Source: Candidatus Saccharimonadota bacterium
GTDB lineage: Bacteria > Patescibacteriota > Gracilibacteria > BD1-5 > UBA2023
Length of the DNA stretch: 32,000 bases
NCBI GenBank assembly: GCA_046350815.1
Contig: JAXLZO010000001.1
Span: 90,001-122,000, forward strand
Direction of reading: 5' to 3'
The position numbers and the translations under genes are program-made. This document shows positions 5,298-32,000 of this stretch, one piece after another (position 1 is the stretch's first letter; every line of letters starts with the position of its first letter). The notes beneath the pieces were generated by a model. That model saw only the letters and a program-made list of their open reading frames with translations, was not told where the DNA came from and did no database searches.

Positions 5298-5353
5298 AGG
5301 AATTTTTGCGATTGAGTATAGGAAAACTTGAAAAGAAGTCAAAACAGAACTCG

Positions 5354-5375
5354 AAAATCCCCACATGGGGATTTT
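5354..5375. terminator. intrinsic terminator overlapping the stop of the giant ORF
   Basis: aaaatcccc (5354-5362), loop acat, ggggatttt (5367-5375). The TAA of the giant gene is at 5375-5377. Confidence 0.65.
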
Positions 5376-12337: not shown

Positions 12338-12401
12338 ACGAAGAAAAATAGATATTCACTACAGTATCATATAGATTGAGGAAATTTGCAAAAATTTGAG
12401 C

Positions 12402-12429
12402 AAAAAATACCTTGCATAAGGTATTTTTT
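12402..12429. terminator. intrinsic terminator downstream of the GT4 transferase gene
   Basis: aaaaaatacctt (12402-12413), loop gcat, aaggtatttttt (12418-12429). Confidence 0.75.
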
Positions 12430-12446
12430 GATATGTAACACAGAAT

Positions 12447-13616: not shown

Positions 13617-13627
13617 AGAGCAATATG

Positions 13628-14380
13628 TTATTTAATTTTTGCGCGCTCCATTTCTTCGATCTCCAATTCCTTTTCTCGCCAATATCGTTTGACACTCTCA
13701 CGCTTGAATATGAGAAGATATGCAATCACACAAATAGCAAACATACCAAGAATTTTTCCGATATTATCGATGATTTTTTCATAATGTTCAGCGAAAAGTC
13801 GACCAATAATGCTCATAACACCCACCCATAATACAATTCCAAATGAATTAGGAATAAAAAATTTCATGAACGACATACCAGATGATCCAGCCAAGAGAGC
13901 ACCAATAGATGCAGTGAGATTATGAAATTTTCAGAGGATCAGAAACCATGATCCGTGCTTCTCAAATCCACGCTCGATATACGATCGCTCTGTTTTTCCT
14001 ATACCAAATCCAGGGCCGAAATGAGTAAGAAAATAATCACCATAACGTCGCCCGAGAAAATACGACACGATATTGCCTACAAACATAGCAGCAATGCCGG
14101 TCAGAATCATAGCAGGTAACACTTCACCATGACTGAATCCAAGGGTGAGAACAAAAAGTTGTTGTCCGGGAATAAAGAGTCCGAGAAATGGAAGTGCTTC
14201 TATAAGCACAATAATAGCAAGAATTCCAGCTCAGTAGAGACCAAAAGATTTGATCAATCAGGAAAATTGCATGACAAAATCTTTGATCATTTCACGCTCA
14301 AAGAGTGCTAAAAGTAAGAGTCCAAGAAAGAAAAATGTTGTGAGATACTGCACTACTTTAATAATCCAATTGAGTTTCAT
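13628..14380 (-). CDS. DedA/VTT-domain family membrane protein
   Basis: ATG at 14380. ...EALPFLGLFIPGQ...GNIVSYFLGRRYG...HG.WFLIL[TGA]KFHNLTASIGALLAGSSGMSFMKFFIPNSFGIVLW is the DedA pattern. Four in-frame TGA and TAA at 13628-13630. Confidence 0.85.
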
Positions 14381-14439
14381 GAAAACATATTATGTGTGGA
14401 TTGTATCTCATAGCGAGTGTGAGGCAAATGTTTTTCTCA

Positions 14440-14469
14440 AAAAATATATCCCTTTAGGGATATATTTTT
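14440..14469. terminator. intrinsic terminator overlapping the stop of the 14468..15322 gene
   Basis: aaaaatatatccc (14440-14452), loop ttta, gggatatattttt (14457-14469). Confidence 0.75.
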
Positions 14470-15322
14470 ATGCAGTGAGTGTTTGTGGTTTTTGAGAAGA
14501 AGATTCATTATCATCTCGATCGATTCAAAGTGCACTTTTCGCCTGGATCGAGACACGTTGTTCATCGAGAGGTACCGGATAAAAACGCATACTTGCAAAC
14601 CTCGGGTGCTTTGAGGCCTCGAAGGTCATTCCACGAGGCTTACCTGGTTCAACCTGAAAATATGGATCATAGATCATCATCACGCCCGTCTTATCAATGT
14701 ATGCGAGACATGCATGGCCGAGAGGCTTTGTGCTACCAGCATCTTTTGGGCGATCAGTAAAAGCATGAAAAATAACTCATTTATGCTCTCCTTGATAAGT
14801 GATAGCTTGCTTCATATTCATTTTTGCTGAAGATGAATATTTAGTTTTTTCAACCATATAAGCACTCTCAGCACGTGGCAATTGTACGCCGAACATTTCC
14901 TCAGCGAAAGTACGTGCAGATTTTGCACAGTAGGTCATCTTATTTTGAATAATAGGACCAGCACCAACGAGAGCAATTCATTTTGTACCGGATCTTACTT
15001 TAGCAAGATATTCTTCGAGACCTTTGATATCATTTTTCTCCCGAAATTTTGCGATCTCATCATCATATCCACCTGCAAGAGAAAAATCCTCATCTTCATC
15101 AATATTACCATCTGGACTCACCGTTTCTTCAGGAAGAGTTTTTCATGTAATTTGTGCAAAAAGAGATTTCATTTTATCATACTGTGAAAAGAGACTCTTC
15201 GCAAGATCCATAGCAGTGATATCCTGAGCACCATCTTTGAGCTTGATGTTCTCAAGTACCTTAACTGCAAGGGGATTCTCTGATGTAAATTTCCCAACGG
15301 TTGTTGAATTTGTTTCGTTCAT
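14468..15322 (-). CDS. hypothetical protein, possible papain-like (CHAP/NlpC-type) Cys/His hydrolase
   Basis: ATG at 15322, four in-frame TGA, TAA at 14468-14470, no N-terminal signal peptide. Candidate catalytic pattern: ..MTYCAKSARTFAEEMFG.. then about 70 aa later ..PLGHACLAYIDKTGVMMIYDP... The start is 6 nt downstream of the SLT gene stop. The functional call is weak. Confidence 0.55.
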
Positions 15323-15327
15323 ATGCT

Positions 15328-16707
15328 TTAACTAACAGGTAAATCGACACCAAAATACTTTCTCGTAGCTATGAGATAACCATCCCAAGTCTGCGACGGC
15401 ATAAGGCGTGCGACGGCAGGATTAGCACGCATATAAGAAGTGAGATGTTTTTCAGATGCCCAAGCACCAACATGATAATAAACAACTACATCTCACCAAT
15501 TCCTACAATCTCGAAGATCACAAAGATAACGTAGAAGCCAAGTCATTGCCAGAATCTGATGTTCCGGATTGGACCTCTGCCAATTATGATTGCCTGATGT
15601 TGTCAGAATATGTGTCCATGTTTGGTCGGTGATCTGACCAAGTCAATATGCAGATCATTTTGGTGGATGGGCTACTGGATTTCATCCACTCTCATTCGAG
15701 ATAATCTGTGCTATGACACTGGCTGGAACATGATATTGAGCTGAAGCATGGTTTATATATTCTCCAAAACGCGACATAATACCTTCTGCTCATTTCACCT
15801 GTTTTTGGTACTTCTTCTCCATATCTCGTGCCATCTTTTCATCTGTTTCATAATCACGAGACGCAGATTGATATCGCGCGTCATCACCTCGCTTATGAGC
15901 AAGAAGAGCAATATCTTTGCTATTGGATCGCATAAGCACCTCATACTCCAACTCTCGTACTTTATCCTCTCGTTTTTGTCATTGCAGAACAAGGGATTGT
16001 GCCAAATTTTTATTCGGTTCTCATATTTTCAAGATCTTTACTACGCTTCCGTTATAAATTGGTAAATATATCTGTGTGTGGTTTTTATCTCATTTATCAA
16101 AGTAATAGCCTGGGCGCGGGGTAGATCGTAGATTTCCTATTTTTCCATCCACTTCTACTTGACTCACACGTGTTGGAAGTAGATCACCAAGACCAAGAAG
16201 TTCATTTGCATGTTCGTTTACATTTTCATGAGAACCAAAATTTACAATCATCTTCTGACCAATTGCTTCTGCACTAAAACCACGATCTTCAACTGCTTGG
16301 CCACTCTGAGAGAGGAGAAAATATCGAGCATCCTCAGGGAAGTTACGAAGGTGAGAGAGAAGATCACTCGTGCGAACCTCAGAAAAGTTCTTCGGAGCAC
16401 CCAAGAGAAAACTATTCTTCTCTTGAATATGTTTGAAAGCTTCTTGGAGATACTGCTCTTTTGTTGATTCTGAAATTGATTCCTGTGCAGATTGAGCGAG
16501 TTGATGAGCCTTTTTTTGCGTTGTTGAAGCAATTATTTTTTTCTCGCTTCCATTTTGTAGTGCTGCAATTTGCGTATCAGTTTTCGTCTTTTCATTAGAA
16601 TCTGCTGTATTACGAGAGAAGGTATCTATTTTCATAATCCAAGAAGACGTGCGTTCTACAGCCTTATGATAGATTTGAGACAGATCCGATAGTTTTTCTG
16701 CGGGCAT
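15328..16707 (-). CDS. lytic transglycosylase (SLT/GH23 domain) with a roughly 300-aa N-terminal domain of unknown function
   Basis: Fragment 16090..16707 continues through TGA 16090-16092 in the same frame to TAA at 15328-15330. The C-terminal domain reads HVPASVIAQIISNESGGNPVAHPPKGSAYGLGQITDQTW ... VVVYYHVGAW (ES / GLxQ / AYNAG-like SLT motifs). I see no signal peptide. Confidence 0.8.
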
Positions 16708-16763
16708 AATAAAAAAATTTAGTTCCTACTCATCTTCTCACACTTTCTCAAATTCGTCAAAAA

Positions 16764-16788
16764 AATCTCCAATTATTCATTGGAGATT
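16764..16788. terminator. intrinsic terminator overlapping the pgi stop
   Basis: aatctccaa (16764-16772), loop ttattca, ttggagatt (16780-16788). A T-run follows on the minus strand (16757-16763). Confidence 0.7.
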
Positions 16789-17969
16789 GTATTTTTTCAT
16801 TCAAGATACTCTCGAGCGCGGGACTTGTAGAGCTCAACCAACGGCTGATCAAAGGCATCCACCTCACAAATCGCCGAAAGGAGCATAATTACCAACATCT
16901 TCTGTTGCATCCATTCTGCAATATCATATTCAGAACGACGAATGAATGTTTTGCGACAAGGAATCCCTTGATCAATTGCGGCGTGAAGTGCACCGTGATA
17001 GAGCGCATCTCGCGCCTCACGAAACACGTCATTATCCTCTTGGGGAATACAACGAATCCACTCAATCAGCCATGGATGACCTTGAGCATAGACAGACTGG
17101 GCGATCGAATGAAGATCCATTGTGCCAGTTGCTGATACAGGAAAAAGATAAGTAGGATTTGATTCTTTTCCAAAGCTCTCAGCAAAAAGCTGAACAAACC
17201 ATCGACCAATATGCACAGAACTCGTATCGAAAAAGAAATTCAGATACCAATTTCTTCCACGAGAGAGTCAATCCATAATCCACAAAGTCTCACGTGAAAC
17301 AGCATGAGTATAAGGATCCCTTACAAACTCATCTACGACAGATTGAGCGCCTTGTAAAAGTAACTCAATATTATAACCTCAGAGATAGAGTGGAACGAGA
17401 CCAACATGGGAAAAGACAGAAAAGCGCCCTCATACCATTTTTTCAAGATGAAAGACAATATCGTTCTGTACAAGTGCCGAACTCTCAAGTTGACTTCCCT
17501 GACCTGTAATGACAATACGGAGTGGACGCGATCAAAAATTCTTTTCGAGCGTATCGTAAATATATTCTGAGAGAAGTTTGGTCTCAAGAGTACCACCAGA
17601 CTTGGATATCTCGCAGAGAGCGAGCTCTTCAATATTTGTAACTGATGAAATAATCGAGTGAAGACGCCCATAAGTAGCGTCACCATCAATCGTCTCAAAA
17701 AAATGCAATTCAGCGTATCACCTACGTTTCCGCCCCAAGAATTTCATAATCGCTTTCGCTCCAAGGGAAGATCAACCAATACCAATGATAATGAGATGTT
17801 TAATATTCTGATGAATCGATACAAGTTTTGTTTCAATTTCTCGAATTTTTTTAGATCCAATGAGTGGTAATACGATAGATGCTTCTTTTGAGTCAAGATT
17901 CTTATTCTGAAGAACATTTACAAGTATTTCAATACTCGATTCAAAGTTCTTATCTACAAAATTTTTCAT
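16773..17969 (-). CDS. pgi: glucose-6-phosphate isomerase
   Basis: ...HLIIIGIG[TGA 17772-17774]SSLGAKAI..., GRWFVQLFAESFGK, and GTMDLHSIAQSVYAQG (equivalent to GTTDQHSQ.Q). Fragments 17772..17981 and 16797..17216 share the frame. In code 25 the frame ends at TAA 16773-16775. ATG at 17969, with an alternative TTG at 17981. Confidence 0.9.
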
Positions 17970-17981
17970 AGGAAAGAACAA

Positions 17982-18839
17982 CTAATGAGCAAGGGGTTGT
18001 ATACATGCGAGAATTTTTGGACGCATATCATCCCTCTTGAGAGCATAATGAATCGATGCAGCAATATATTCAGATTTATCACCCACATCAAAACGTTTGC
18101 CTTCTATTCTGCATGCAGCAATGGAGACATTATTCATGAGAGCAACGTTGAGTGCTTCAGCAATAGTAATTCGACCATCTCGTCCACTCGCCATACTCTC
18201 AAGAATATCAAAAACTTGCTTAGTAACAATGAATTTTCCTATCATCGCCTGAGTACTTTCAGTCTCATGATTCTGAGGTTTCTCAAAAATTTTGACAATA
18301 TTGTCCGTGTTCATTTCGACCACTCCATAACTCCCCTGACGATCGAGAGTAATATCCCCAATACCAGCCGTAATATTTCATCCAGAAGCTTCAAAACCTT
18401 TCAAAAGCTGAAGGACTGAAGTATTATTATTATCAATAAGTTCATCACCAAAGAGCACAACACACGGCTCATCCCCTATCCACGATTTTGTCTTCAAGAG
18501 AGCATCTCCATCACCACGAGGCTCGCGCTGTCGAACATAGGCAATATTTGCAAGTCGAGACACTTCATCTACTTGAGAGAGGAGATGATATTTTCCCTTC
18601 TCCACAAGATTCTTCTGAAGATCGAATGACGCATCAAAATGCTCTTCAATAGCCCGTCCACCTCGACCAGTCACAATCATAATATCCTCAATTCCCGCAG
18701 CAACACAGTCCTCAACAAGATATTGAATAATAGGTTTGTCAATAAGTGTGAGCATTTCTTTTGGGAGCGCCTTCGTCGCAGGGAGAAAACCAGTACCATA
18801 TCATGCCGCGAGAATTACCGCCTTCTTAATTGGTTTCAT
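17982..18839 (-). CDS. galU: UTP--glucose-1-phosphate uridylyltransferase
   Basis: MKPIKKAVILAA[TGA 18801-18803]YGTGFLPATKALPKEMLTLIDKPIIQYLVED..AGIEDIMIVTGRGGRAIEEHFD... Fragments 18378..18755 and 17982..18323 share the frame. TAG stop at 17982-17984. Confidence 0.9.
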
Positions 18840-19683
18840 AATGAGAAAGAAATGGATTTAAAAATGAATATGTTTGATGAAACGATCGAACCTCAACACT
18901 CATCACATTTGGAAGAACACGAGGAATACTTTCATCACCTCATAGAGTGATTTCATCACCAAAGAACACTACTTTCTTTCCCTGATATTGTGCGAGCATG
19001 AGAATTTTTTCAAGATTATGACCTTTGAGAGCACCAATTGATTTGATATCAATGCTTGTTGCTCCCGAAATCATCCATTCGTACTCACGAGCAACCTCAT
19101 CATTTTGTGCCCGCAAGAGACGAACGATCTCAGAGCGTACTATTTTATCAGGATCAGCTGCTGCTCTTTCTTCACGAGAGATTTTACTCTGCTCTCATGT
19201 ATGGATATCCGTACGAAATCGAGGAACAACAACAACCGTCAAATTACTGATACGATCCTCAATACTTGCTCATGTATGAAGGTGAGGTATGATTCACGAA
19301 TGTTTTATTGCCTCGAAATCAGAGCAAATCTTCGCACGAAAGTCTCTTGGCATTTCATAAATTGACTCGTATTCACAAAATTCTTCCCCACTATATTTTG
19401 CTGTCTGTCAACCATTCGCACCAGCAATCAGCCAATTTTCCCAATTGGTTTCCTTTGGAAGATATTTAAGAATGTGGGATTCTACCGTTTGAAAATCTCG
19501 AGCTGTGAGAATAATAATTTTCTTTTCATGACTGAGTTTCGAGAGAATATTCGCATGCTCTCCAAAAATATCCTGATTTGGTTCAGTAAGAGTACCATCA
19601 ATATCAAACACAAATACATCAGATCATGCAATATTATGAAAAATATCATCCGATTCTTGAGAGGCGTCATAAATATGACCCAT
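18826..19683 (-). CDS. HAD-IIB family protein (phosphomannomutase-like sugar-phosphate mutase/phosphatase)
   Basis: ATG at 19683. Motif I is FVFDIDGTLT, motif II is IIILTARD, then SIDIKSIGALKGHNLEKIL and FFGDEITLGGDESI (compare eukaryotic-type PMM FFGD....GGND.E). Six in-frame TGA. TAA at 18826-18828 overlaps the galU start by 14 nt. Confidence 0.7.
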
Positions 19684-19697
19684 GAAATGAACAAAAA

Positions 19698-21618
<1,921 letters not shown>

Positions 21619-21620
<2 letters not shown>

Positions 21621-22379
21621 GGAGAGAGATGGAAAATGAGGAGCGGATTATACTTCAGAGAACAAAAATTGCAATAAATGGGAGAGAGGGAATTTGTATT
21701 TTCTTTTAAAATATGCTATATTCTTCACAGAACAATCTAGATGTTATGAATTCAGTCAACTACGGGCAAAATTTTGTAGAGTATCTCACATACTTGAAAA
21801 ACCATATCTCCAAGAAAATATTCATCTTCACCGAGTAACGTACACCACCTACATTGTATTTATCATCATTCTAGTATTTATCATCATTCTAGTATTTATC
21901 ATGATGATAGTATTACAGGGATTCTTTTTTATTATTCTTGTGGGTCTTTTTTATTGAATACAAAAGTCAAAACAAATAGAAAAGCGTGGTATAATCAGTG
22001 ATTTTTTCGCAGCATTGCATGCATATATTCATATAAAACCAGAACGATTCCAAGAAGCATATATCTGACTTCAATGATATCACCAGGTACTCTATCCACT
22101 CATATTCATACAACAATTTCTCAATCCGCAACTTTTGATAAAACCATCTGCATACATAGACTGCACATTATCAAAGAATCATAACAGTATAATTCAACCA
22201 CAAGCAATACCACAAAAAACACAAGATTATTGAGGGCTCTACTGAAATTTTTGAACGCAAAAAAATATGTCCGAAAAGAACTTCACAACATATGAAGAAA
22301 ACAAACATCTCTCTATTCAAGAACAGGTGGAAAAATTTTTTCAAGAACAGAAAACGGGAGCAAAGAGTAAAAAACAATA
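21619..22379 (+). CDS. hypothetical membrane protein (code-25 ORF only; start uncertain)
   Basis: Reading frame 1 has no TAA or TAG for about 253 codons of very AT-rich sequence, with six in-frame TGA, and ends at TAA 22377-22379. The hydrophobic core is IVFIIILVFIIILVFIMMIVLQGFFFIILVGLF. The ATG at 21619 abuts the gyrB start on the other strand, and a TTG at 21694 is an alternative. No family motif recognised. Confidence 0.4.
21856..21909. repeat. 3 x 18-bp tandem repeat
   Basis: gtatttatcatcattcta x2 (21856-21873, 21874-21891), then gtatttatcatgatgata (21892-21909). If the surrounding ORF is real it encodes VFIIIL/VFIMMI. Confidence 0.9.
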
Positions 22380-22516
22380 ATTCGCTTGCGCTTTGCATAT
22401 TTCGTGTATAATCTGAAGTGAGGAAGGGCTATCTTCCGTGTTTACTGGGCTCATGATAGCTTTGGTCCGAGTTTAATTACTTGGAATGAGTGGGTCTCTG
22501 TTTTGTTTTTTGTTTT

Positions 22517-22792
22517 ATGGTACAAGGTACTAAGCTCTACGTTGGAAACCTCTCTTGGAAGACCAGCGATGATTCACTTCGAGCATTTTTTGCTTCAACT
22601 GGTGATGTTACTTCAGCAAGTGTTGCACTTGAGCGTGATACTGGACGTTCTCGTGGATTTGGTTTTGTCGAAATGGCAACTCCTGAGGCTGCACAAGCTG
22701 CAATCGACGCACTCAACGAGCAAGAGCTCGACGGTCGAAAAGTATTCGTTTCCGAGGCTCGTCCTCGCGAAGATCGCCCTGCACGATACTAA
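22517..22792 (+). CDS. RRM-type (RNP-1/RNP-2) RNA-binding protein
   Basis: MVQGTKLYVGNLSW (RNP-2) ... RGFGFVEM (RNP-1) ... RP.EDRPARY tail. TAA at 22790-22792 and no in-frame TGA. Visibly GC-richer than its neighbours. Confidence 0.9.
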   Translation: MVQGTKLYVGNLSWKTSDDSLRAFFASTGDVTSASVALERDTGRSRGFGFVEMATPEAAQAAIDALNEQELDGRKVFVSEARPREDRPARY

Positions 22793-22797
22793 TCGTT

Positions 22798-22839
22798 AGA
22801 GATAATAAAAACCGCCAATCGGCGGTTTTTATTATCTCT
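22798..22839. terminator. strong intrinsic terminator (19-bp perfect stem)
   Basis: agagataataaaaaccgcc (22798-22816), loop aatc, ggcggtttttattatctct (22821-22839). Confidence 0.85.
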
Positions 22840-22953
22840 TTTTCATTCTTTATTAAGTGATGAGTTGATTTGTAGAATATTTGTCAAGCTGCTTTATTGC
22901 AGAAGGGGGGGTAATGTGCTATCATTTCTGTGTTATTTTATTTTATATTTTAT

Positions 22954-25900
22954 ATGGCATCACCAGACAAATATAGCCCCTCCGTAGAACAAAAAGATTG
23001 CCCACCAGAGCTCAAAGTGAAACTCAAGTGAAAAAAGAATGAATGGCAGGACAGAGCAAAGTCTTTTAATACAAAATCTTTTGAAGAACATAAATCAGAA
23101 ATATCAGATGTCAAAAAGGCAGCTGATACTTTTATGGCTCAGTCAGTACTTGAAAACATCACCCTCAATGCTGATGACAAGGCATTACTCAAATACATGC
23201 GAACTCTCAGCGTGGACAAACCCATAGACATATCCATTATGCAAACAATGCTTCATGATGTCTGTGACAAAACCATTGCAGTGGATGGTCGAATGGGCGA
23301 ACAAACTATAACTGCCATGAAATTGGCAATGGAAAAATTTAAAAGTAAGATCCCTGGTTACCAGGAGTGATTAGTTGTAGGAGCCAAGATTGATGCTGCA
23401 ATAGCACCTGTTATTGATATTCCCTCTGTGAAGATACCAGCAAAACCAGCGCAAGTATCAGGCGATAGTTTGTCTGCGACAGAAAATGATTTTTCCATAT
23501 CAATACAAGAAAAAGTAAATAGTTGCAAAACATTACTAAAAGCAAACTATCCAGGATTGTGAGTCCAAATCAATGAAAAATGAGATCTTTTCATAAGACA
23601 AGATGTGATAGGAAGTTCCGATACGAAACTTCAAAAAATTGCAACTATTGATCTCTCAAAGACAGAAGATATTGCCTGGGATAATATACGAGTTGCTCTT
23701 GAAGAATATATAGCAAAACAGAAAGTCAGTGCACCAGCTGTTATATCAACACAAACGGAGGCAATTTCTACAGACAAACAGACCGTAACGAATGAGTCAA
23801 ATCAGATCGATGTTAAGGCTGAACAAACCAAAAAAATTCAGCTATCTCCAGAGCAAGATTCTGATGATAATCTCAAAACAATAGAAGCAGACTGGAACAA
23901 AGTAATGAATCAAGCAGAAGAATATGCAAGGAAACAATGATTGATTTTAACAATGGTGAAAACAGGTGCTGTTGTCAAATCTATGGGAGCATCAAAATTT
24001 AATCCGATTGAAATTTATGATATTTACGTAAAAAAAGAGGGGCAAACCAAAGCAGAAAAAATAGGAACATCCCACCCTGTACATTTAGAGCGAAAAGTTG
24101 ATATTCAGGGAAAAGTAAAAGATATACAAGTTTTGGTTGATAAGTATCTAAAGCATGATGCTGTCAAACCACAAGAAGTAAGCCAGGAAGCCGTGGATAA
24201 AGCTTGGTATGAAGGTTTTGACGAAGCATCAAACTATGCCAAAGATAAATGATACATCCTTACAAACCAAGCGAGCGAATTGACAGCAAAAGGTTGAAAT
24301 GCGAGCCGTCCTAATATTGATAAAGGGAAACTTCAAACAATTGCTCTCGTAAATAAAAATAAAAAGGAAAGACGAGAACTTTGAACAATTTCAGTAGAAA
24401 AGATTCACCTTGTGTCGATAAAAACCCCTCAGGAAATAAGGGATGAAATACAAAAAAGGATAGATGAATCACTTGCAAGAACAATGACAGAATCACAAGA
24501 AAATAAGACACGGACAGAAAATATCACAAAAATCGATACCCTCCTTCAAAAAATGTGATATTCCTTAGATTATGTTGACGGTAAAGCAGGAAGAATGTAT
24601 AAGAATCAAAATAATGAAAGACTTCAAGTATTTTGATGATTCTCTTGAGTTCCAAAAGATCATACTCTCACAGATTCAGAAATAAGATACAATTTATTAC
24701 AAAACAATAAGCAAAAAGATTTGCAACAACAAATTGATAACGCGATGAACGGTAAAATAAACTCTGAAGCAAATGAACAGCATTCTGAGAAAATATTCAT
24801 ATCAAAAAAAGCTCTTTCTGAATTTAAAACATTAGGAATTACTCTCACAAAACAAGACGATGGTATCCATGGAGATTTTGATCAAAATAAACATTTTATG
24901 GGTCTAAATACATCATTTGATAAGAGTGGAAAATTCATCAAAACCGAAGAATGGCCAGTGAGTAAAAAAGTATGAGAGGAATTTTTTATAGATAACAAGA
25001 CAAAATCTGTAACCTTTGAAAATGGGGTATTCACATTTATAGATAAAGATGGTTCAAAAATGACATCAGTGCTTACCGAAGTAAAAAACCAGCCGATGGA
25101 TCAAGAAATGATCAATAATTTCAAAAATGATGCCCCAAATTCTGTACAGGTTCTCTCAGCGACAGATTTAGAGATCAAGCTCAAAACAATAGCTCCGAGT
25201 GTTAAGACAAGATCATTTAATATAAAGAGCGCTGTAACAACGTGATTTGATGAGGTTCTTTGAGAAATTACTTTTAATGCAACTAAAGAAGATTCATTTA
25301 CAAAGATGCTATGGAAAGACGAGCGAATATCAGGAAGTATTATTGCGCAACTTGCATCTCGAGGATTTGTTCTTGATAATTGGATACAACCAGTTGCTGA
25401 TATAGAATCTCGTTCATGAGACAATGTTATGGTGATACCACATCCAGATGGAAAAGGTTTTGCAACGGTTTGTAAAGGTGGCGGAGTCCATGTTTACAAC
25501 AAGGATAACATAAACCCAAGTACGGTATTTGCACGTAAGCCAGTCATCTATCTCTATCCGATCAAGAAGACGAAAATCTCAGTATCAGTTGAACTCTCAG
25601 GTGCTGATATGATCACAGAATATCCAAGAACTACGAATGGTATATGGAAAGTGGAAGCATCACCGAAAGGAAACCTCGTTGATATATATGACAAGAAGAA
25701 ATACTCATACCTCTTCTGGGAAGCTGCAAAACATACAAGTTTTACGCTCAATCCGGAAAATACGGATTGTATTGCAAATGTCGATGTACAAACTTATCTT
25801 GAAAAGTCTCTCAAAACCCTTGGTCTCAATGCCCGAGAAATGAATGATTTTATGGTATATTGGCTCCCAATACTTGAACAAAATCCATACAGTCTTATCG

Positions 25901-26106
25901 AGTGGAAAACGACTGAATATACTGATATGGCAAAGCTGCATATTTCGCCAAAACCCGAAACACTTATTCGAATATTCATGGTCTTCAAATGATCAGAACA
26001 AATAGTAGCTACGAAGAACGTAGAGCTGCAGAAAACGAGACGAAAAGGATACTCCGTGGTAGAATGGGGCGGATGTAATCTCGATGAGAAGAACAATATC
26101 AAATAA
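22954..26106 (+). CDS. 1,050-aa hypothetical protein with an N-terminal peptidoglycan-binding-like module and a conserved-looking C-terminal domain
   Basis: Fragments 23134.., 23605.., 23941.., 24721.., 25060.. and 25429..25992 all lie in frame 1. I read every codon from 22954 to 26106 and found only TGA interruptions, with TAA at 26104-26106. ...LLKYMRTLSVDKPIDI..IAVDGRMGEQTITAMKLAMEKFKSKIPG resembles PG_binding_1 (xDGxxGxxTxxAvxxFQ). The C-terminus reads KPVIYLYP...YSYLFWE...LGLNAREMNDFMVYWLP. No signal peptide or TM segment seen. Confidence 0.7.
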
Positions 26107-26116
26107 TTATTTCCCT

Positions 26117-26284
26117 ATGAAAACCTATCAAAAAATGATCGAAGAGAAGAAACAAGAGCTCACCAATGAGCTCGAACTTTCTGATCAACTTGAGAACCTC
26201 AAGCATCTCTCGATAACGCTGGAACAATCACTCGAACACGACCAAGAAGTCCTCGAGGCGCATAAGAATATCACTAACATCTAG
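26117..26284 (+). CDS. small (55 aa) acidic coiled-coil protein
   Basis: ATG at 26117, MKTYQKMIEEKKQELTNELELSDQLENLKHLSITLEQSLEHDQEVLEAHKNITNI, TAG at 26282-26284. It sits between the 1,050-aa gene (10-nt gap) and the caspase-like gene (5-nt gap). Confidence 0.45.
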   Translation: MKTYQKMIEEKKQELTNELELSDQLENLKHLSITLEQSLEHDQEVLEAHKNITNI

Positions 26285-26289
26285 AATAT

Positions 26290-27594
26290 ATGTCAGAAGT
26301 TCCATCATATCAAGCAACTCGTGGGTTCGATCCGGAAATAGGTCCTGGCTACGACCCAAATGCGAAAGTGGAAGAAAAAATAGCTAAACCCAAAGATCCT
26401 CTCATAAAAACGGAAAAACTTGATAAAATCAAGTGATTAACGAGTACGGATTTACGTACAAATCTTCTGAATACTGACACATCCAAATTGAATCTCGAGA
26501 CGACAACTCGCTATCTTATTGCACTCACGCAAGAAATTAACATCGCAAAACTACAAAATCAAGATACAATGCAACAATTTCTTGGGAAATTTCAAGCAAT
26601 TCAAGAATCTTATCACAATCTCATCGGTTCATGAACCATTAGCGAATGATCTCAAAAACTTAGAGAACAAATAGAACTATGTCTGGAGTCTATTCAAAAA
26701 GGTCTAGAATCAAAAGATAAAGCACCATGATATATCTATGAACCACTTGAACAAGAACTTACAGAAATGGAAATAGACGACACAATAAAAAATGTCGATC
26801 AGCTCCTCAAAAATAAGCCATCTATGATATTCGTATGAGTAAATAAATACAACCACAATAGGAATATGAATCAAATGATGGCAAGATACTTAACAGCTAA
26901 TAAGCCGATTCCAAATTGGGAGTTGCGTGGTGCTGTGGATGACGCAAAAATTGTCGCTCAAAAAATTGAGTGATATCCATCATCAAACAAAGTAGAACTT
27001 CATGATGAGATGGCAACAAAAGAGGCAATTCTTAATGCCATAAAAACTTCACCATCAGACAAAGATATCTTCCTCTATATGTCCTGACATGGTGTGGATG
27101 GACACTTTGTACCTTATACAAAAGGTGTTATAAGTAATATGGATAAATCCGTTTTACAAATCATGATCAGTCCAGTGGAGCTATTTGAGGCAATCGGAAA
27201 AAGAAAGGCAGTTGTTATTGTTGATCATTGTTTTAGTGGTGATCTTGTAATGTCAGCACCAGACAATATCACCATTATCTGAGCAAGTGACTCTATGACA
27301 ACAGCACTAGATACTATCAAGAATGATAGTAGTATAAAATCAGAAAAAGGATTAGTAATAAGGAATGAAATAGTGACTGGAAAAAGAGAAAAAATACAGA
27401 TTGTAAAAGGAGAGAAAGTGATGAAAAGTGAGGATATCTTTTGATGAAAAGCAACCTTTGGTCTTACAGGTAATAAAAACATTCCACTTGATATCCGTTG
27501 ATTTGTAGACAGTGCAAGAGCAGTAAGTCATCTACGTGATCACAATCAACAACCTACAATCAATGCAGGAATAACAAGTAGCACAAATCTATAA
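26290..27594 (+). CDS. caspase-like cysteine protease (peptidase C14 / caspase-HetF fold) with an N-terminal helical domain
   Basis: ATG at 26290, frame 1, eleven in-frame TGA, TAA at 27592-27594. Hallmarks: MIFVGVNKYN, RGAVDDAKIVAQKI, catalytic His in IFLYMS[TGA 27085-27087]HG (YxSGHG), and catalytic Cys (27229-27231) in AVVIVDHCFSGD (DxCxSG). Confidence 0.85.
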
Positions 27595-27616
27595 GAAATA
27601 TTTCAAAGCTACTCAA

Positions 27617-27647
27617 AAAAATAGAGTGTCATTGGCACTCTATTTTT
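27617..27647. terminator. bidirectional terminator between the convergent caspase-like and kinase/HExxH genes
   Basis: aaaaatagagtg (27617-27628), loop tcattgg, cactctattttt (27636-27647). Confidence 0.75.
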
Positions 27648-29628
27648 CTATATCATTTCTATCTTGACTCTCATCAATAACATCCGCTGGCTCCGTCTTG
27701 ATACGATCCATCCATACTTGCTCTTCACCAAGAATATCACTTGGTTCAGTGTCAATACGATTCCTCCAAGCTCTCCGCTCAATCAGAGATGCGAACATTT
27801 TCCAATCAGAAACTGGAAGAAAAGAAAGAATCTCAATAACATTATCTCTTCCTTCTATTGTATTGCCATATACTCGCATAATATATGTAAGTATATCAAA
27901 CATGATCTCATCAAACTGAGGATGGGTATCTACCCTATAGAGGTCATCTATCAGAAAGATTCTTGTTATCTCTCGTATATCATCCCCATTCGAGAGATAA
28001 GCGATGATCTCCTCTTTGAGTTTCCAAAGAAGTCGATCTTCTTCCCTATCATCGGAGAATAATGCCTTGTTGATGGTGGCGTGTCTCGCCTCATGTATGA
28101 GCGCTCTCTCGTTTGGAGTTGTGATGATGACACTATATTTTTTTCAAGAATCAAGATATTTTCTCGTTGCGAATGCGCCCATTCTACCTCTTTCTTCTGG
28201 TATGAGAGATTGATTAAACGCATCTCGATCAGAAAAAACTACCCCAACAGCATTCCCTATGAGACATAACCGTGCATTCTTTGATGTAACCTCAGCAAGG
28301 TCTCAAAAACCATCGATTCAACCAAGAATTTTCTTTGGATCACCTCAGGAATATAAAAGTGCTTCGAGAGAATTCTCAAAACCATCTCGGTATATACCCA
28401 GAGATTCAAAAGCAATTTTCAGAATAGTTATTGTGAGTAATCTTTGTTGTTCTTGGGTGGCTTGACTAAAGAATAACGTCATATGATCAACAATCGGTAA
28501 CAAAGGCTGACGATCAAAAGATGATCGGATAAATCGAACCATAGCACCACCCAGTTCAAGTTGCCGAAGTATAACTTCTGAAATAGGAAGATGGAGAATT
28601 TTTGCCTTTGATTTTAGATCCTCATCCAATCGAATATTTTCAAATTCTAACATTCGACTGATACAAAATTCACTATAATCCCCCGATACTCCTCCAGAAA
28701 GACGTGGTGCTGAACCATGAATAACAGATAATATATTATTCTCGGGGAAATCAGCAAAATTTAATCATCAAACTTCCACTTTGACAGAAATATCAGAATC
28801 ATCATATTCCTCATTCTGAGGAGTTCTGATTGATATTTCTGTTGGTGTTCTCGTAGGTGTATCAATAGGTGTCGTATCCTTTATTGATAAATGAAGGTTC
28901 TGATGATCAACTATTGCCTGCGAAAGCCATAATATATCATCCAAATCTTTCTGTTTACATTGCTCAAAATATGGACTATTCTTATCTATACCAACTGGAT
29001 CAAATATAGAAAATTCTATCGTGCTCGTTCAACAGTTATTATCGATACGCATAAGGATATTTCACAAAATATCACCATGAGCAATACCTGCTTGATGATA
29101 TTTATCAATCGTATCAGAGAGCTGTTCGAGAAAGAGTGGAATGGTTATTTCAGTGAATTCTTCCGAATCATTACGATTGAGAATCTGCAATAGATTTGTA
29201 ATGTGCCAACCCTCAACCTTCTTTGTCACCAGAAATCATGCGTCTGCATGAAAAGTTATTGGACTAACAGTGTGATACGGATCAACACTATACATACTAC
29301 AAAGAACCCTATATTCCGCCTCAAAATCATCAAAAACCTGACCAAATAATTTTGGCACGGTTCTTTTCTTTTGATATTTCACGTAATAGTCATCAGGAGG
29401 ATACTTAACCGTGATTTTTCCTTCACCAACATTAATCATTCAATCACAAATACTCTTAATAGGTGGAATATACCCATGAGAACTATTTTCATTCACAGCA
29501 GATATATCCTGAAAAGACGAAAGAATATCCCAAACACGGGAGGCAGTATTTACTGGCATATCTGTGAGAATTTCATGAGGGATTACGGATCCTTTTTCAC
29601 TCCCGTACGATACTTGTTGATTTTTCAT
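27640..29628 (-). CDS. fusion protein: N-terminal protein-kinase-like domain plus C-terminal HExxH (zincin-like) domain
   Basis: I read each codon from 29652 to 27640 and found only TGA interruptions, with TAG at 27640-27642. The kinase-like catalytic loop is IAHGDIL[TGA]NIL (H 29077-29079, D 29071-29073, N 29059-29061). Also FSIFDPVG (DFG-like), ITVKY and FEAEYRVL upstream, a TPxxTP linker, then VIITTPNERALIHEARHA (HEARH = 28081-28095). ATG at 29628, with an alternative TTG at 29652. Confidence 0.75.
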
Positions 29629-29732
29629 TGTTACGTATTCTAATAATTTCAATCATCATAGCATAACTCTTTATTTTTTACAAAAAATAGCAAGTTCTTT
29701 GTCATTTAAAAAATACTTGTCAAGTAACTTTA

Positions 29733-29761
29733 TTGCTAAGTTTAGTATAGTGTGATATTAT
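29733..29761 (+). promoter_or_regulatory. sigma70-like promoter candidate for the 29793 gene
   Basis: TTGCTA (29733-29738), 17-nt spacer, TATTAT (29756-29761), about 30 nt upstream of the ATG. It lies in a 164-bp AT-rich divergent intergenic region. Pattern match only. Confidence 0.25.
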
Positions 29762-29792
29762 TTTTTTGTTACTTATTTTCATATACTATTTT

Positions 29793-30944
29793 ATGTTTGA
29801 AAATTTCCAACCCACTCAATCAGACTCTGAATGTAAGAGAAAATGAAGAGAATCTCGTGAAAGAAATCCTTCATCACGCAATGTGAGAGAAGAACTTAGA
29901 AAGCACCAAGCAAGTATAGATGCACGTGTGTGAGACAAAAAACCAAGTGTAGCGATCAACAAAAAAACTCTCCTCGACGCAGATATTACTCGTATTGGCC
30001 GAGGGAGTGTTATGGCATGGATGCTCAATGGCGGTAAAGAAGATATTGGACGGAAAAAGGGCATAGATGTAAACGAAATAGAATCTATCAATTTTTACAA
30101 AGCCCTCGACCGAGCATGGCAGATGAAACTTCGAAAATACGGAGCACGCAACCCATGACTCCATAAATTCTATCAGGAACGTATTATCCCATTCACAAGA
30201 TGAGGTCAGAATTTCTCAGCCATATCACGAACTGATTTTAACAACAAGGTTTCCCATGCGTTGAATAATGTAGATAAGCATCTTGAGCTAAATACCATTT
30301 TTTCTCAGGATCCACTACGAAAAAAAACATTTCTGAAGATCAAAGAAATTATGGGAGTCAATCAAGTTATTGCTGTTATGTACAGTGAAATGATTGACTC
30401 ACAGAATCCCAAAAAAGCAAATACCTTCTTTAATTTTATTCTCAATAATGCGGGGGAAGAATTTCTTGAGCTTTTTCCAGCCATGTGAGATAAGTATCTC
30501 TCATATGGCCCAGCACAGTTTACAAAGTTTACAATAGGAAAAGATGGAAGTGCTATTGCATTTCAAGATGATCATCTTAGCGCTAATATTATTGCAGAGA
30601 ATATGCGAGATATCAAAAAACAAGATCACTACGAAGGTATCTACATTATCATGTTATCTTCACTTCAGTGACTCCTTCGTAGTTTAGATAAAAATGAAAT
30701 ACGAAAACTTGAAAAGTATATTATACAATCCCCGGAAAAAGCACGAAATCTCCTTGTACAATATATAGCTGCCGCTCACAATGGACCAACTGCGGCAAAA
30801 AGAGCTTTTATATGACATATTCATGCTAATATTCGTAACGACACATTGAATGTTCATGGAAGGAAAGAAGCCTCAAATAATGCAAAGAAAGCGAAAAAGA
30901 ATGAACGAAAACTTTCACAAAGTTATCCACATCGAAATGGATAG
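29793..30944 (+). CDS. hypothetical protein, possible divergent GH23 (lytic transglycosylase/lysozyme-like) fold
   Basis: ATG at 29793, seven in-frame TGA, TAG at 30942-30944. The N-terminus is basic. VNQVIAVMYSEM.., ..LSYGPAQFT.. and ..LLVQYIAAAHNGPTAAKRAF parallel the ES / GLxQ / AYNAG blocks of the SLT domain at 15328..16707, but with a roughly 30-aa insertion. Weak. Confidence 0.6.
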
Positions 30945-30958
30945 CTAAATTAATATTT

Positions 30959-30994
30959 AAAAACAATAACCAAGATTTCTTGATTATTGTTTTT
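30959..30994. terminator. bidirectional terminator between convergent genes
   Basis: aaaaacaataaccaag (30959-30974), loop attt, cttgattattgttttt (30979-30994). 16-bp stem with one mismatch. Confidence 0.65.
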
Positions 30995-31016
30995 CGTAAT
31001 TCTTTGATAAATGAGC

Positions 31017-31901
31017 CTATCTCCTCTCCTTCCGAATCTTCTCCGAATACTGACTATCATTTGCAAACTCTTCCGAAAGATCATTGATCTGATAGTACTC
31101 ACGCGCCTCCGCAAGTGGCAATGAAGTATCAATGAGTCAAAGGTCATAAGCAATCTCATCAGAATGCGATGGAAGAAGGATTCTCTTGTCCCAACCAACC
31201 TTGTCTGTTCGGAGAGCATTCACATGACGAAGAATGCTCGTAGTGCAGGTATTCCAGATAGTATTATAGAATTCAGGTTCCTTTGTCAGTTTGTCCGCTC
31301 GGTGCATAGCCGAGAGAAACAGTCATTGCATCTTATCCTTGGATGTTTTGATTGGATACATATATACAGCATCTTTTCGATAGTTTGCACGTAATTTTAC
31401 CAAATCGTTCTCATCACCAACAATATAAGTAATTTCGAACTGATTCATCAGTCCTGGGAGAACATCGAATGACTCTCCTTTTTCCTTGCGAACTTCAGCT
31501 GAAACCGTCACAAACACTCCTCATGAAAATCAGAATGAGAGCATGGTATGAGCAGGTCCATCATGTCTGGAGAATGGTTCTATTATGTAGTAAACTGACT
31601 CAATCTCATCGAGATTATAACTACGATTATAATATCATGGAGTATAATCAGTTGTCGATCGATAGGTAAAATTTCGAACATTCTTCACATCCACAAGATT
31701 TCCAGAAAAGGTGATAGCTGGGAGTACAGCATGATCTGTGGCCCAGTCACGATACAGTGAAGGCTTCTGAGAGAGCCACCAAGCAAGTCCAACCGTGAGA
31801 GCAATCATCAAACTAACAAGGAATACTCGCTCCCATATATACCAGGTGGCTTTTACAAAAAAGAAAAGAACTTTAAGAATTTTTTTTAGAAGAGGTGGCA
31901 T
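31017..31901 (-). CDS. DUF4105 (Lnb N-terminal-like) membrane protein
   Basis: ATG at 31901 with an N-terminal TM segment (VFLVSLMIALTVGLAWWL). ..VDVKNVRNFTY.., ..GPAHTMLSFGFS.., ..VSAEVRKEKGESF.., ..YNTIWNTCTTSIL.. match my recollection of the DUF4105 pattern. Fragments 31635..31901 and 31323..31517 share the frame. TAG at 31017-31019. Confidence 0.7.
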
Positions 31902-31947
31902 AAAATGAAATGGGGCTATTAATTTCTACACTAAAAAGGGACAAAAT

Positions 31948-32000
31948 ATGAAAAGTGTAGAGATGAAGAGAATTTTTGCAAAGGATTTATGAGAAAAATT
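31948..32000 (+). CDS. possible start of a gene running off the window (17 codons only)
   Basis: ATG at 31948, MKSVEMKRIFAKDL[TGA]EK.. Too short to evaluate. Confidence 0.2.

What the first reader, a model, noticed from the sequence alone, without database searches (positions are those of the whole stretch)
27640..29628. Single polypeptide combining a protein-kinase-like domain and an HExxH metalloprotease-like domain
The N-terminal half has the HxD....N catalytic loop (IAHGDILGNIL), a DFG-like FDP, and plausible beta3-Lys/alphaC-Glu elements, resembling small atypical kinases (RIO, Bud32, WaaP-like). After a TP-rich linker, the C-terminal half contains ..TPNERALIHEARHA.. . I do not know of a characterised kinase-zincin fusion. 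It converges on the caspase-like gene and shares its terminator, so the two proteases and the kinase may act in one pathway.
Basis: partly seen in the sequence, partly recalled or inferred. Interest (0 to 1): 0.65.

Follow-up and report, generated by a model that had tools for sequence, protein, structure and literature searches.

The report
Minimal kinase fused to HExxH metalloenzyme module
A gene from a candidate-phyla-radiation bacterium, readable only when TGA is translated as glycine, encodes a small but apparently active protein-kinase domain fused to a previously undescribed HExxH…Glu metal-enzyme module that looks like a zinc protease; the same two modules are fused in both orders in related bacteria, so they probably work together.

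Summary
Under genetic code 25 (TGA = Gly, shown with GyrB and with TGA/GGA swaps between orthologues), 27640..29628 (-) is one 662-aa gene under purifying selection.

- **Kinase half (residues ~85-255):** a minimal protein-kinase-like domain. All top Foldseek matches are kinases (Bud32, Rio2, Wee1). The Lys/Glu/HxD/Asn/Asp catalytic set is nearly invariant in 60 related domains, and some relatives pass Pfam RIO1/Kdo thresholds.
- **HExxH half (residues ~456-640):** an orphan module with no match in Pfam, NCBIfam, PHROGs or PDB sequences. H-E-x-R-H and a Glu 24 residues later are invariant at 19-31% identity. Predicted secondary structure (strands, HExxH helix, Glu helix) fits the zincin core. 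Fold similarity to a solved zincin could not be shown.
- **New result:** the same module sits immediately upstream of the same kinase in other proteins (P0011-P0014). The pair therefore occurs in both orders and the HExxH module never demonstrably alone.
- **Distribution:** very rare (about a dozen proteins carrying both modules among 1.84 billion representatives), seemingly restricted to CPR bacteria, and always called "hypothetical".
- **Context:** differs in every lineage. The caspase-like neighbour is shared only with close relatives, so a joint pathway is unsupported.

Function remains inferred.

The parts
27640..29628 (-). Complete gene (662 codons plus TAG stop) read with genetic code 25; contains 10 TGA = Gly codons
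29413..29628 (-). N-terminal tail (residues 13-84 in 674-aa numbering); predicted disordered and poorly conserved
   Evidence: pLDDT 20-40; dN/dS 0.27
28900..29412 (-). Minimal protein-kinase-like domain (residues 85-255): beta3 Lys96, alphaC Glu117, HGD196-198, Asn202, DPVG222-225, followed by a single C-terminal helix
   Evidence: dN/dS 0.085
29059..29079 (-). Catalytic loop H-G-D-I-L-G(TGA)-N
   Evidence: H 57/57, D 57/57, N 55/57 among related domains
28990..29001 (-). D-P-V-G, the equivalent of the kinase DFG metal-binding motif
   Evidence: D 52/53, P 52/52
28678..28899 (-). Disordered Thr-Pro-rich linker (residues 256-329)
   Evidence: pLDDT below 50; dN/dS 0.39 and indels between orthologues; TP enrichment
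28300..28677 (-). All-helical middle region (residues 330-455); conserved within the kinase-first family, no known relatives
27745..28299 (-). Orphan HExxH...Glu module (residues 456-640): two beta-hairpins, the HExxH helix, the Glu helix, then four more helices
   Evidence: dN/dS 0.14
28081..28095 (-). H-E-A-R-H (His524, Glu525, His528)
   Evidence: invariant in 11 of 11 sequences from both architectures
28009..28014 (-). Glu551-Glu552; Glu552 is invariant and is the candidate third metal ligand, lying on the helix after the HExxH helix
27643..27744 (-). Acidic C-terminal tail with the tandem repeat RIDTEPSDIL / RIKTEPADVI
27617..27647 (.). Bidirectional terminator-like hairpin shared with the convergent caspase-like gene; it overlaps the last codons and the stop codon of the target
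29655..29683 (-). Promoter-like site TTGTAA-17-TATGAT (with a TG extension), 27 bp upstream of the ATG at 29628 and overlapping the alternative ATG at 29664; a consensus match only

Best explanation
This is a genuine, expressed-looking chromosomal gene of a code-25 CPR bacterium (Gracilibacteria/Absconditabacteria type). It encodes a soluble cytoplasmic protein with two enzymatic modules. Module 1 is a minimal kinase of about 170 residues from the Bud32/RIO/Kdo-like branch of the protein-kinase-like superfamily. It keeps the full ATP-binding and phosphotransfer residue set (Lys96, Glu117, Asp198, Asn202, Asp222) but has a reduced N-lobe and almost no C-lobe. Module 2 is an orphan metal-binding domain of about 185 residues, with invariant His524-Glu525-x-Arg-His528 on one helix and invariant Glu552 on the next, preceded by beta-strands. 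That is the arrangement of a gluzincin-type zinc metallopeptidase. The two modules are evolutionarily locked together: they are fused in both orders, the HExxH module is never demonstrably found alone, and no partner gene is conserved. Inferred mechanism: the two activities are coupled within one molecule or on one substrate. Most likely the kinase phosphorylates Thr in the Thr-Pro motifs that cluster in the disordered linker and C-terminal tail, or acts as an ATP-driven switch as Bud32 and RIO do, and this gates the metallopeptidase. Alternatively the peptidase cuts in that linker. Shown here: the gene, the genetic code, the kinase fold and residues, motif conservation, the permuted fusions and purifying selection. 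Inferred only: metal binding, proteolysis, phosphotransfer, and any coupling between them.
For: Code and gene. Purifying selection on both modules (dN/dS 0.085 and 0.14) versus the linker (0.39). Kinase: weak but concordant matches to Kdo, Bud32, WaaP, LanKC, PD-T4-6 and MkoA kinase regions. Relatives of the module pass Pfam RIO1 and Kdo cut-offs. All top-50 Foldseek matches in PDB, and nearly all named top matches in BFVD, are kinases, led by Bud32 4wwa_A at E = 8.5e-4. Catalytic residues are conserved in 60 domain instances. HExxH module: H, E, H and Glu(+24) are invariant across 11 sequences of 19-31% identity drawn from two architectures. Predicted topology is strands 464-469, 472-477, 500-504 and 510-515, helix 519-536 with HExxH, and helix 544-558 with Glu552. 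This matches the published zincin core definition of a beta-sheet, an HEXXH helix and a Glu helix (PMC5512222). Coupling: a profile built only from kinase-first proteins finds the module directly upstream of the kinase in P0011 (45 bits), P0013 (44 bits), P0012, P0014 and P0052. P0054, the only apparent stand-alone copy, is a fragment. No neighbour is conserved across seven lineages. There is no hydrophobic segment, so the protein is cytoplasmic. TP motifs are concentrated in the linker and tail, 19 of 29 in 13% of the length.
Against: No significant structural or profile match links the C-terminal module to any zincin. Foldseek output was filled with kinase hits. The low-confidence model gave only noise-level hits, including the M48-like 3c37 at E = 6.6. 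Profile searches of PDB sequences, Pfam, NCBIfam and PHROGs were empty. hhalign against thermolysin aligned the strand plus HExxH in register, but at 1.9% probability. Arg at the second x of HExxH is unusual for peptidases (my own knowledge). HExxH enzymes that are not hydrolases exist (PMC12636437). The kinase lacks a conserved Gly-rich loop and the window protein itself is below every curated family threshold. The TP enrichment used windows chosen after seeing the data, and disordered regions are often rich in Pro and Thr. There are no expression or biochemical data.
Confidence: 0.5

Rival explanations
1. Self-processing toxin or effector. As in polymorphic and polyvalent toxin proteins, the HExxH domain would be a releasing peptidase that cuts its own polypeptide in the disordered linker and frees the minimal kinase, which then acts as a toxin by phosphorylating a cellular or host target.
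For: There are computational precedents for a metallopeptidase and a kinase toxin in one polypeptide (PMC3482391, PVC-metallopeptidase with Tox-Peptide Kinase; PMC5512222). The permuted relatives have long N-terminal extensions followed by HExxH module and then a C-terminal kinase, which is the polarity of such toxins. The kinase module also sits at the C-terminus of large proteins and inside giant proteins of up to 6530 aa, and occurs as ~180-aa stand-alone cassettes. In one lineage the gene starts 9 bp after a Phd/YefM antitoxin gene. The kinase gives weak matches to defence kinases PD-T4-6 and MkoA.
Against: No signal peptide, secretion-associated domain or repeats are present. No immunity-like gene is conserved downstream. 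The partner of the HExxH module is always the same kinase rather than a variable toxin. In the window's architecture the peptidase is C-terminal to the kinase. Neighbours are mostly housekeeping genes, such as CTP synthase, SHMT, GyrA and Der. The family is absent from viral contigs. Strong purifying selection with no sign of diversification.
Confidence: 0.2
2. The HExxH module is a metalloenzyme or metal-binding regulatory domain but not a peptidase. It could be an Fe/alpha-ketoglutarate-type HExxH oxygenase, another hydrolase, or a substrate-binding or regulatory domain for the kinase.
For: There is no detectable relationship to any peptidase family. alphaKG-HExxH hydroxylases show that a zincin-reminiscent fold with HExxH can carry out non-hydrolytic chemistry on peptides (PMC12636437). 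The invariant Arg inside the motif and the invariant Asn after it are not typical zincin features (typicality from my own knowledge). LanKC-type peptide kinases were among the kinase matches.
Against: The NCBIfam scan, which I expected to include the alphaKG-HExxH family model, gave no hit even at E <= 10. No RiPP-like genes are nearby. The His-Glu-His plus Glu-on-the-next-helix arrangement, with the strands before it, is the classical gluzincin layout.
Confidence: 0.2
3. The kinase-HExxH protein and the convergent caspase-like protease form one functional system.
For: The genes are adjacent and convergent with a shared hairpin terminator. The arrangement is kept in loci L002-L005, L010 and L011.
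Against: Those loci come from close relatives (75-98% identity), where synteny is expected anyway. Six more distant members lie in six different contexts with no caspase-like gene. Convergent genes are separate transcription units.
Confidence: 0.05
4. Artefact: a pseudogene or non-coding stretch full of stop codons, with HExxH and HGD occurring by chance.
For: Under table 11 the frame holds 10 stops.
Against: All the stops are TGA, and the whole window behaves the same way. TGA aligns with Gly. Full-length orthologues and distant homologues exist. dN/dS is 0.16 overall. The motifs are invariant across the family.
Confidence: 0.01

Closest known systems
Bud32 / RIO / Kdo-WaaP small atypical kinases (protein-kinase-like superfamily)
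   Same: Small size. Lys-Glu pair, HxD...N catalytic loop and a metal-binding Asp are present. No activation segment and a truncated C-lobe. These are the best structural matches (4wwa_A Bud32, Rio2) and the best profile matches.
   Different: Scores are far below family cut-offs (13-20 bits against 125-199 for Bud32 models). The DFG equivalent is DPVG, and there are family-specific invariant Arg101 and Pro104. There is no conserved Gly-rich loop. The core is even smaller, about 150-170 residues. There is no KEOPS or ribosome-biogenesis context. The family is bacterial and apparently CPR-restricted.
Gluzincin metallopeptidases (thermolysin-like HExxH + Glu; minimal forms such as ImmA/IrrE M78 and the minigluzincins)
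   Same: HExxH on one helix, an invariant Glu about 24 residues later on the following helix, and beta-strands immediately before the active-site helix. The spacing is comparable to thermolysin, His146 to Glu166 (my own knowledge).
   Different: No significant sequence, profile or fold match to any member. The motif is H-E-x-R-H-x(2,3)-N, with an invariant Arg and Asn. Metal binding and proteolysis are untested.
PVC-metallopeptidase + Tox-Peptide-Kinase polymorphic toxins (Zhang et al. 2012, PMC3482391)
   Same: A HExxH peptidase domain and a reduced kinase domain in one polypeptide. The permuted relatives share the polarity of peptidase first and kinase last.
   Different: There the peptidase is a constant N-terminal releasing domain joined to many alternative toxins and linked to PVC/eCIS loci. 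Here the partner is always the same kinase, both orders occur, there are no PVC genes, and Pfam finds no match. That kinase has different motifs (DxH, YKP[KR], DxHxEN).
Polyvalent proteins of phages and conjugative elements with zincin-like MPTase and C-lobe-less kinase domains (Iyer et al. 2017, PMC5512222)
   Same: Minimal kinases that have lost the C-terminal subdomain but keep the active-site residues. They occur stand-alone and inside giant multidomain proteins that also carry HExxH domains.
   Different: Those kinases have an insert between the catalytic His and Asp, whereas here the sequence is H-G-D. They come from Verrucomicrobia/Chlamydia/Bacteroidetes prophages. The window gene is a compact two-domain chromosomal gene, and the family is absent from viral contigs.
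Kae1-Bud32 fusion of Methanocaldococcus ('kinase + putative endopeptidase', KEOPS)
   Same: A Bud32-like kinase fused to a metal-binding domain once annotated as an endopeptidase. It is a precedent for a kinase-fold ATPase regulating a fused metalloenzyme. 3en9_B was a weak Foldseek hit through its kinase part.
   Different: Kae1 has an ASKHA fold and an HxxxH motif and is readily recognised by Pfam. The C-terminal half here matches nothing of that kind.

Membership tests
Protein-kinase-like (PKL) superfamily | beta3 Lys and alphaC Glu ion pair | tested here: met
   Lys96 is on predicted strand 93-97 and Glu117 on helix 114-127. Conserved 41/43 and 54/57 in related domains.
Protein-kinase-like (PKL) superfamily | Catalytic loop HxD...N and a metal-binding Asp (DFG equivalent) | tested here: met
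   H196-G-D198...N202 and D222-P-V-G. Conserved 57/57, 57/57, 55/57 and 52/53.
Protein-kinase-like (PKL) superfamily | Bilobal kinase fold by structure comparison | tested here: met
   All 50 top PDB matches are kinases (Bud32 E = 8.5e-4, prob 1.00; Rio2 rmsd 4.0 over 139 columns), and nearly all named top BFVD matches are kinases too. The model's pLDDT is 75-95 in this region. TM-scores are modest (0.3-0.45).
Protein-kinase-like (PKL) superfamily | Gly-rich ATP-binding loop (beta1-beta2) | tested here: inconclusive
   The window has 'VGEGK' at residues 78-82, but with low pLDDT and no conservation in distant relatives. The N-lobe appears reduced.
Protein-kinase-like (PKL) superfamily | Score above a curated family threshold | tested here: not met
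   The window protein scores 13.2 bits against Kdo (cut-off 21.3). Relatives P0016, P0029 and P0033 do pass RIO1 or Kdo cut-offs, so membership rests on transitive homology.
Bud32 (KEOPS) or RIO family proper | Equivalog-level sequence score and the matching functional context (Kae1 partner or ribosome biogenesis) | tested here: not met
   NCBIfam Bud32 models score 13-20 bits against cut-offs of 125-199. No such context appears in any locus.
Zincin / gluzincin metallopeptidases | Conserved HExxH on a helix | tested here: met
   H524, E525 and H528 are invariant in 11 of 11 sequences and lie on predicted helix 519-536.
Zincin / gluzincin metallopeptidases | Third ligand Glu on the next helix | tested here: met
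   Glu552 is invariant and lies on predicted helix 544-558. This holds only at the level of sequence and secondary structure; 3-D convergence was not checked.
Zincin / gluzincin metallopeptidases | [quoted passage not shown] | tested here: inconclusive
   The predicted order of secondary-structure elements fits. No zincin appears among significant Foldseek hits. hhalign against thermolysin gives 1.9% probability.
Zincin / gluzincin metallopeptidases | Membership of a described peptidase family by profile | tested here: not met
   No consistent hit in Pfam or PHROGs and none at all in NCBIfam or PDB sequences, even at E <= 10.
Zincin / gluzincin metallopeptidases | Zinc binding and peptide-bond hydrolysis | not testable with these tools
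   Requires biochemistry.
PVC-metallopeptidase polymorphic toxins | [quoted passage not shown] | tested here: not met
   The partner is invariably the same kinase. No such neighbours were found. No Pfam match.
alphaKG-dependent HExxH hydroxylases (IPR026337) | Profile membership and a RiPP gene-cluster context | tested here: not met
   NCBIfam gave no hit at E <= 10, and no RiPP-like neighbours were found. That the family model is in NCBIfam is my assumption.
Type II toxin-antitoxin module (Phd/YefM-partnered toxin) | Small antitoxin gene immediately upstream, conserved across members | tested here: not met
   Seen only for P0004 (9-bp gap). In the window, 164 bp of non-coding DNA and a divergent gene lie upstream.
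Genetic code 25 organism | TGA read as Gly | tested here: met

The most novel reading that the evidence does not exclude
An obligate kinase-metalloprotease enzyme pair specific to CPR/Patescibacteria. A minimal Bud32/RIO-like kinase and a previously unrecognised gluzincin family would have co-evolved as one unit, fused in either order. Phosphorylation of Thr-Pro motifs in the flanking disordered segments, or an ATP-driven switch, would license proteolysis, or proteolysis would release the kinase. This would be a new type of phospho-gated protease or self-activating kinase in organisms with minimal regulatory repertoires.
Probability: 0.3. Interest if true: 0.7.

Novelty: new variant of a known kind. 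Interest (0 to 1): 0.55.

Why it matters
- **Biology:** CPR bacteria have tiny genomes and few recognisable regulators. A conserved, strongly constrained protein that welds a catalytically intact minimal kinase to a probable metalloprotease would be a compact signalling or quality-control device, or a toxin, of a kind not yet characterised experimentally.
- **Protein families:** it would add a new family to the zincins and a new minimal branch to the kinase superfamily.
- **Evidence type:** fusion in both orders is the kind of evidence usually taken to show direct functional coupling.
- **Annotation:** public records of the closest relatives hold only 130-aa fragments because the genes were called with the wrong genetic code, so architectures like this one are systematically hidden.

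Tried and rejected
- **Code-25 translation in capped tools:** I used P0001, the same protein with Trp at the TGA codons, so the models carry 12 Gly-to-Trp substitutions.
- **First AlphaFold run:** the 4-row alignment gave an unusable model (pLDDT 43).
- **Fold search on that poor model:** I hoped the unfolded kinase would let C-terminal matches surface, but only noise came back.
- **Word-indexed homologue searches with profiles:** nothing was added beyond four proteins and two fragments.
- **Locus search with the 11-row alignment:** failed for lack of a conserved stretch. The 7-row alignment worked, but reference genomes yielded one locus and metagenomes four.
- **HExxH-module profile searches:** Pfam, NCBIfam, PHROGs and PDB sequences gave nothing consistent.
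- **hhalign against thermolysin:** It aligned the pre-helix strand and HExxH in register but without significance.
- **Readings considered and rejected:** Kae1/TsaD-like identity for the C-terminal half (no Pfam match); a transmembrane or secreted protein (maximum hydropathy 1.19); P0054 as a stand-alone HExxH protein (it is a fragment); phage origin (no viral contigs); a conserved operon partner (contexts all differ).
- **Not attempted:** building custom profiles of minimal zincin families (ImmA/IrrE, SprT, M48) for hhalign, because the sequences could not be gathered efficiently with these tools.
Full report
**Numbering.** Residue numbers follow the 674-aa ORF that starts at 29664. Subtract 12 for the true 662-aa protein.

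Under the standard bacterial code the claimed span contains only short ORF fragments. The whole 32-kb window has just seven ORFs of 150 aa or more. Translation of the minus strand shows ten in-frame stops, all TGA. Treating TGA as sense restores dense coding across the window.

TGA encodes glycine. In the window's GyrB (19698..21620, -), six of seven TGA codons align with conserved Gly of E. coli GyrB. Within the target gene, TGA aligns with GGA in the orthologue at residues 75, 201 and 324. The organism therefore uses genetic code 25, which points to Gracilibacteria/Absconditabacteria-type CPR bacteria.

Read this way, 27640..29628 (-) is a single 662-aa ORF. All quoted motifs are at verified coordinates.

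**2. Is it a real gene?**

- It has full-length orthologues at 76-78% identity in independent metagenomes (P0002, P0003).
- It has distant full-length homologues at 22-30% identity (P0004-P0008 and the L013 protein).
- Against the 78% orthologue, dN/dS is 0.085 for the kinase core, 0.16 for the helical middle, 0.14 for the HExxH module and 0.39 for the linker.
- A strong hairpin flanked by A and T runs lies in the 45-bp gap to the convergent caspase-like gene.
- A promoter-like site lies just upstream of the 29628 start. This is a consensus match only.
- The protein has no hydrophobic segment.

**3. The N-terminal half**

- **Profile matches.** Pfam, NCBIfam and PADLOC give weak matches that all centre on the same region. 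They are to Kdo/WaaP, Bud32, LanKC kinase domains, and the defence kinases PD-T4-6 and MkoA. All are below the curated thresholds.
- **Exhaustive search.** HMMER over 1.84 billion representatives found 57 proteins. Most share only this ~150-residue module. Some of them pass Pfam's own RIO1 or Kdo cut-offs, which gives transitive membership of the protein-kinase-like superfamily.
- **Structure.** An AlphaFold model from an 11-row alignment has pLDDT 75-95 over residues 85-255. All of its top 50 Foldseek matches in the PDB are kinases, led by Bud32, Rio2 and Wee1, and nearly all of its named top matches among viral proteins are kinases too.
- **Catalytic residues.** Across 60 domain instances the canonical residues are nearly invariant: Lys96 41/43, Glu117 54/57, His196 and Asp198 57/57, Asn202 55/57, Asp222 52/53.
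- **Shape.** The domain is minimal. The Gly-rich loop is not conserved, and only one helix follows the DFG-equivalent DPVG.

I conclude that this is an active-looking minimal kinase or kinase-fold ATPase. It is not a member of Bud32 or RIO proper.

**4. The C-terminal half**

Residues 456-640 match nothing consistent in Pfam or PHROGs, and nothing at all in NCBIfam or PDB sequences, even at E <= 10.

Evidence for a zincin-like site:
- His524, Glu525, His528, Asn532, Lys550, Glu552, Ala555, one Tyr and one Leu are invariant across 11 sequences of 19-31% identity.
- The model (pLDDT ~70-85 here) predicts two beta-hairpins, a helix carrying HExxH and a following helix carrying Glu552.
- This is the published definition of the zincin metallopeptidase core (PMC5512222).
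- The spacing resembles thermolysin, His146 to Glu166 (my own knowledge).

Evidence that is missing:
- Foldseek output for the good model was filled with kinase hits.
- The poor first model gave only noise.
- hhalign against thermolysin aligned the pre-helix strand and HExxH in register but at 1.9% probability.

Chance occurrence of HExxH is excluded by conservation. The zincin fold is likely but not demonstrated. HExxH enzymes with non-hydrolytic chemistry exist (PMC12636437), so peptidase activity is an inference.

**5. The new finding: permuted fusions**

In P0011-P0014 an HExxH motif lies about 125-135 residues upstream of the kinase module. These regions share H-E-x-R-H, AKDEIIAYL, LYDY and LLAIxPxxxW with the window's C-terminal module. 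A profile built solely from the kinase-first family detects them: 45, 44, 20 and 17.5 bits, ending 1-14 residues before the kinase.

The two modules are therefore fused in both orders. P0054, the only apparent stand-alone HExxH module, is a fragment on a 1.1-kb frameshifted contig. The kinase module, by contrast, is promiscuous:
- It occurs alone in proteins of about 180 aa.
- It occurs at the C-terminus of large proteins.
- It occurs inside giants of up to 6530 aa.
- It occurs next to a transglutaminase/EDR1-like cysteine-peptidase domain in P0015 and P0021.

**6. Context and distribution**

The family spans both TGA-recoded and standard-code CPR lineages, including a Candidatus Nomurabacteria MAG. 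It is absent from viral contigs. All sources call it "hypothetical". NCBI holds the close relatives only as 130-aa fragments.

| Member | Neighbouring genes |
|---|---|
| Window and close relatives | Lnb_N-domain gene and the caspase-like gene |
| P0004 | Phd/YefM antitoxin gene 9 bp upstream |
| P0008 | MBL-fold gene and GyrA |
| P0005 | CTP synthase and SHMT |
| P0007 | Der |
| L013 protein | MacB-type ABC ATPase and FtsX permease genes |
| P0011, P0013 (permuted) | AAA_14/DUF4143 ATPase gene downstream |

No partner is conserved across the family, so the caspase-like gene is a local neighbour and not a system component.

**7. Mechanism**

*Shown:* a constrained two-module protein, intact kinase catalytic residues, an invariant His/Glu/His/Glu set, obligate association of the modules, and a cytoplasmic location.

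*Inferred:* the modules act on each other or on one substrate. Thr-Pro motifs cluster in the disordered linker and the C-terminal tail, 19 of 29 in 13% of the sequence (the windows were chosen after seeing the pattern). They are candidate phospho-acceptor or cleavage sites.

- **Favoured reading (about 0.5).** A kinase- or ATP-gated metallopeptidase, or more generally a coupled kinase-metallohydrolase.
- **Main rival 1 (about 0.2).** A self-processing kinase toxin of the polymorphic or polyvalent type (PMC3482391, PMC5512222).
- **Main rival 2 (about 0.2).** A non-proteolytic HExxH domain.

**8. Comparison and novelty**

The kinase resembles Bud32/RIO/Kdo but fails their membership thresholds. 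The HExxH module works like a gluzincin on paper but belongs to no described family. Co-occurrence of a metallopeptidase and a reduced kinase in one polypeptide has computational precedent in conflict systems. This compact, chromosomally encoded, CPR-restricted pair with both domain orders appears undescribed.

I rate it a new variant of a known kind, with interest 0.55.

Noticed in passing
window 1..32000: The entire window uses genetic code 25 (TGA = Gly). Public NCBI records of the closest relatives carry this gene only as 130-aa 'hypothetical protein' fragments from MAGs labelled Candidatus Peregrinibacteria, evidently called with code 11.
   Followed up: yes
window 5375..12337 (-): A 2320-aa ORF with 93 TGA codons. 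It has an N-terminal prepilin-like segment ([17 protein letters not shown]) and dozens of RCC1-like '[13 protein letters not shown]' repeats, so it looks like a giant pilin-anchored surface protein. This was recognised by eye only.
   Followed up: no
window 27643..27744 (-): The acidic C-terminal tail of the target has almost no synonymous divergence from the orthologue (dS 0.056, against 0.5-1.0 elsewhere). It contains a tandem RIDTEPSDIL / RIKTEPADVI repeat, one copy of which is missing in P0003. The stretch abuts and overlaps the terminator hairpin, so nucleotide-level constraint or recent recombination is possible.
   Followed up: partly
window 29793..30944 (+): A 383-aa ORF with no family match lies between the target and the Lnb_N gene. 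It is present in the near-identical contig L004 but absent at this position in the 78%-identical relatives L002 and L003, so it looks like an insertion.
   Followed up: partly
window 26290..27594 (+): The convergent neighbour matches Pfam Peptidase_C14 at exactly its threshold and a PADLOC caspase model. It carries SGHG and DHCFSG motifs that fit a His/Cys dyad, preceded by a ~180-aa N-terminal region with no family match that looked coiled-coil by eye.
   Followed up: partly
L015 3785..4984 and L016 3492..4634: Both permuted (HExxH-then-kinase) relatives that were examined are followed by a gene for an AAA_14 + DUF4143 ATPase. This may be a conserved partner of that sub-family.
   Followed up: no
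L013 4096..10256: One family member is inserted between the ATPase gene and the permease genes of a MacAB/FtsX-type ABC exporter operon, starting 15 bp after the ATPase gene.
   Followed up: no
L001 7681..7992: In the NCBI MAG GCA_038912655.1 the homologue P0004 starts 9 bp after a Phd/YefM antitoxin gene, and a separate ParE/YafQ-DUF6364 pair lies just downstream. This is a toxin-antitoxin-like setting seen in this lineage only.
   Followed up: partly
P0015 and P0021 (relatives): The same minimal kinase module is fused to a transglutaminase/EDR1-CTR1-like cysteine-peptidase domain. This second, unrelated kind of peptidase partner echoes the plant EDR1/CTR1 kinase architecture.
   Followed up: partly
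window 28678..28899 (-) and homologous linkers and tails: Thr-Pro dipeptides cluster just after the kinase domain in all seven diverse members, and within the last 11 residues of five of them (TPRNLPD, ITPV, STPRM, TTPRF, TPTRTTRQ). This may be a short linear motif for phosphorylation or cleavage.
   Followed up: partly
L006 3760..4620: The Nomurabacteria locus has a second, unrelated kinase-like ORF (HRD...DFG) 3.4 kb upstream of the family member.
   Followed up: no
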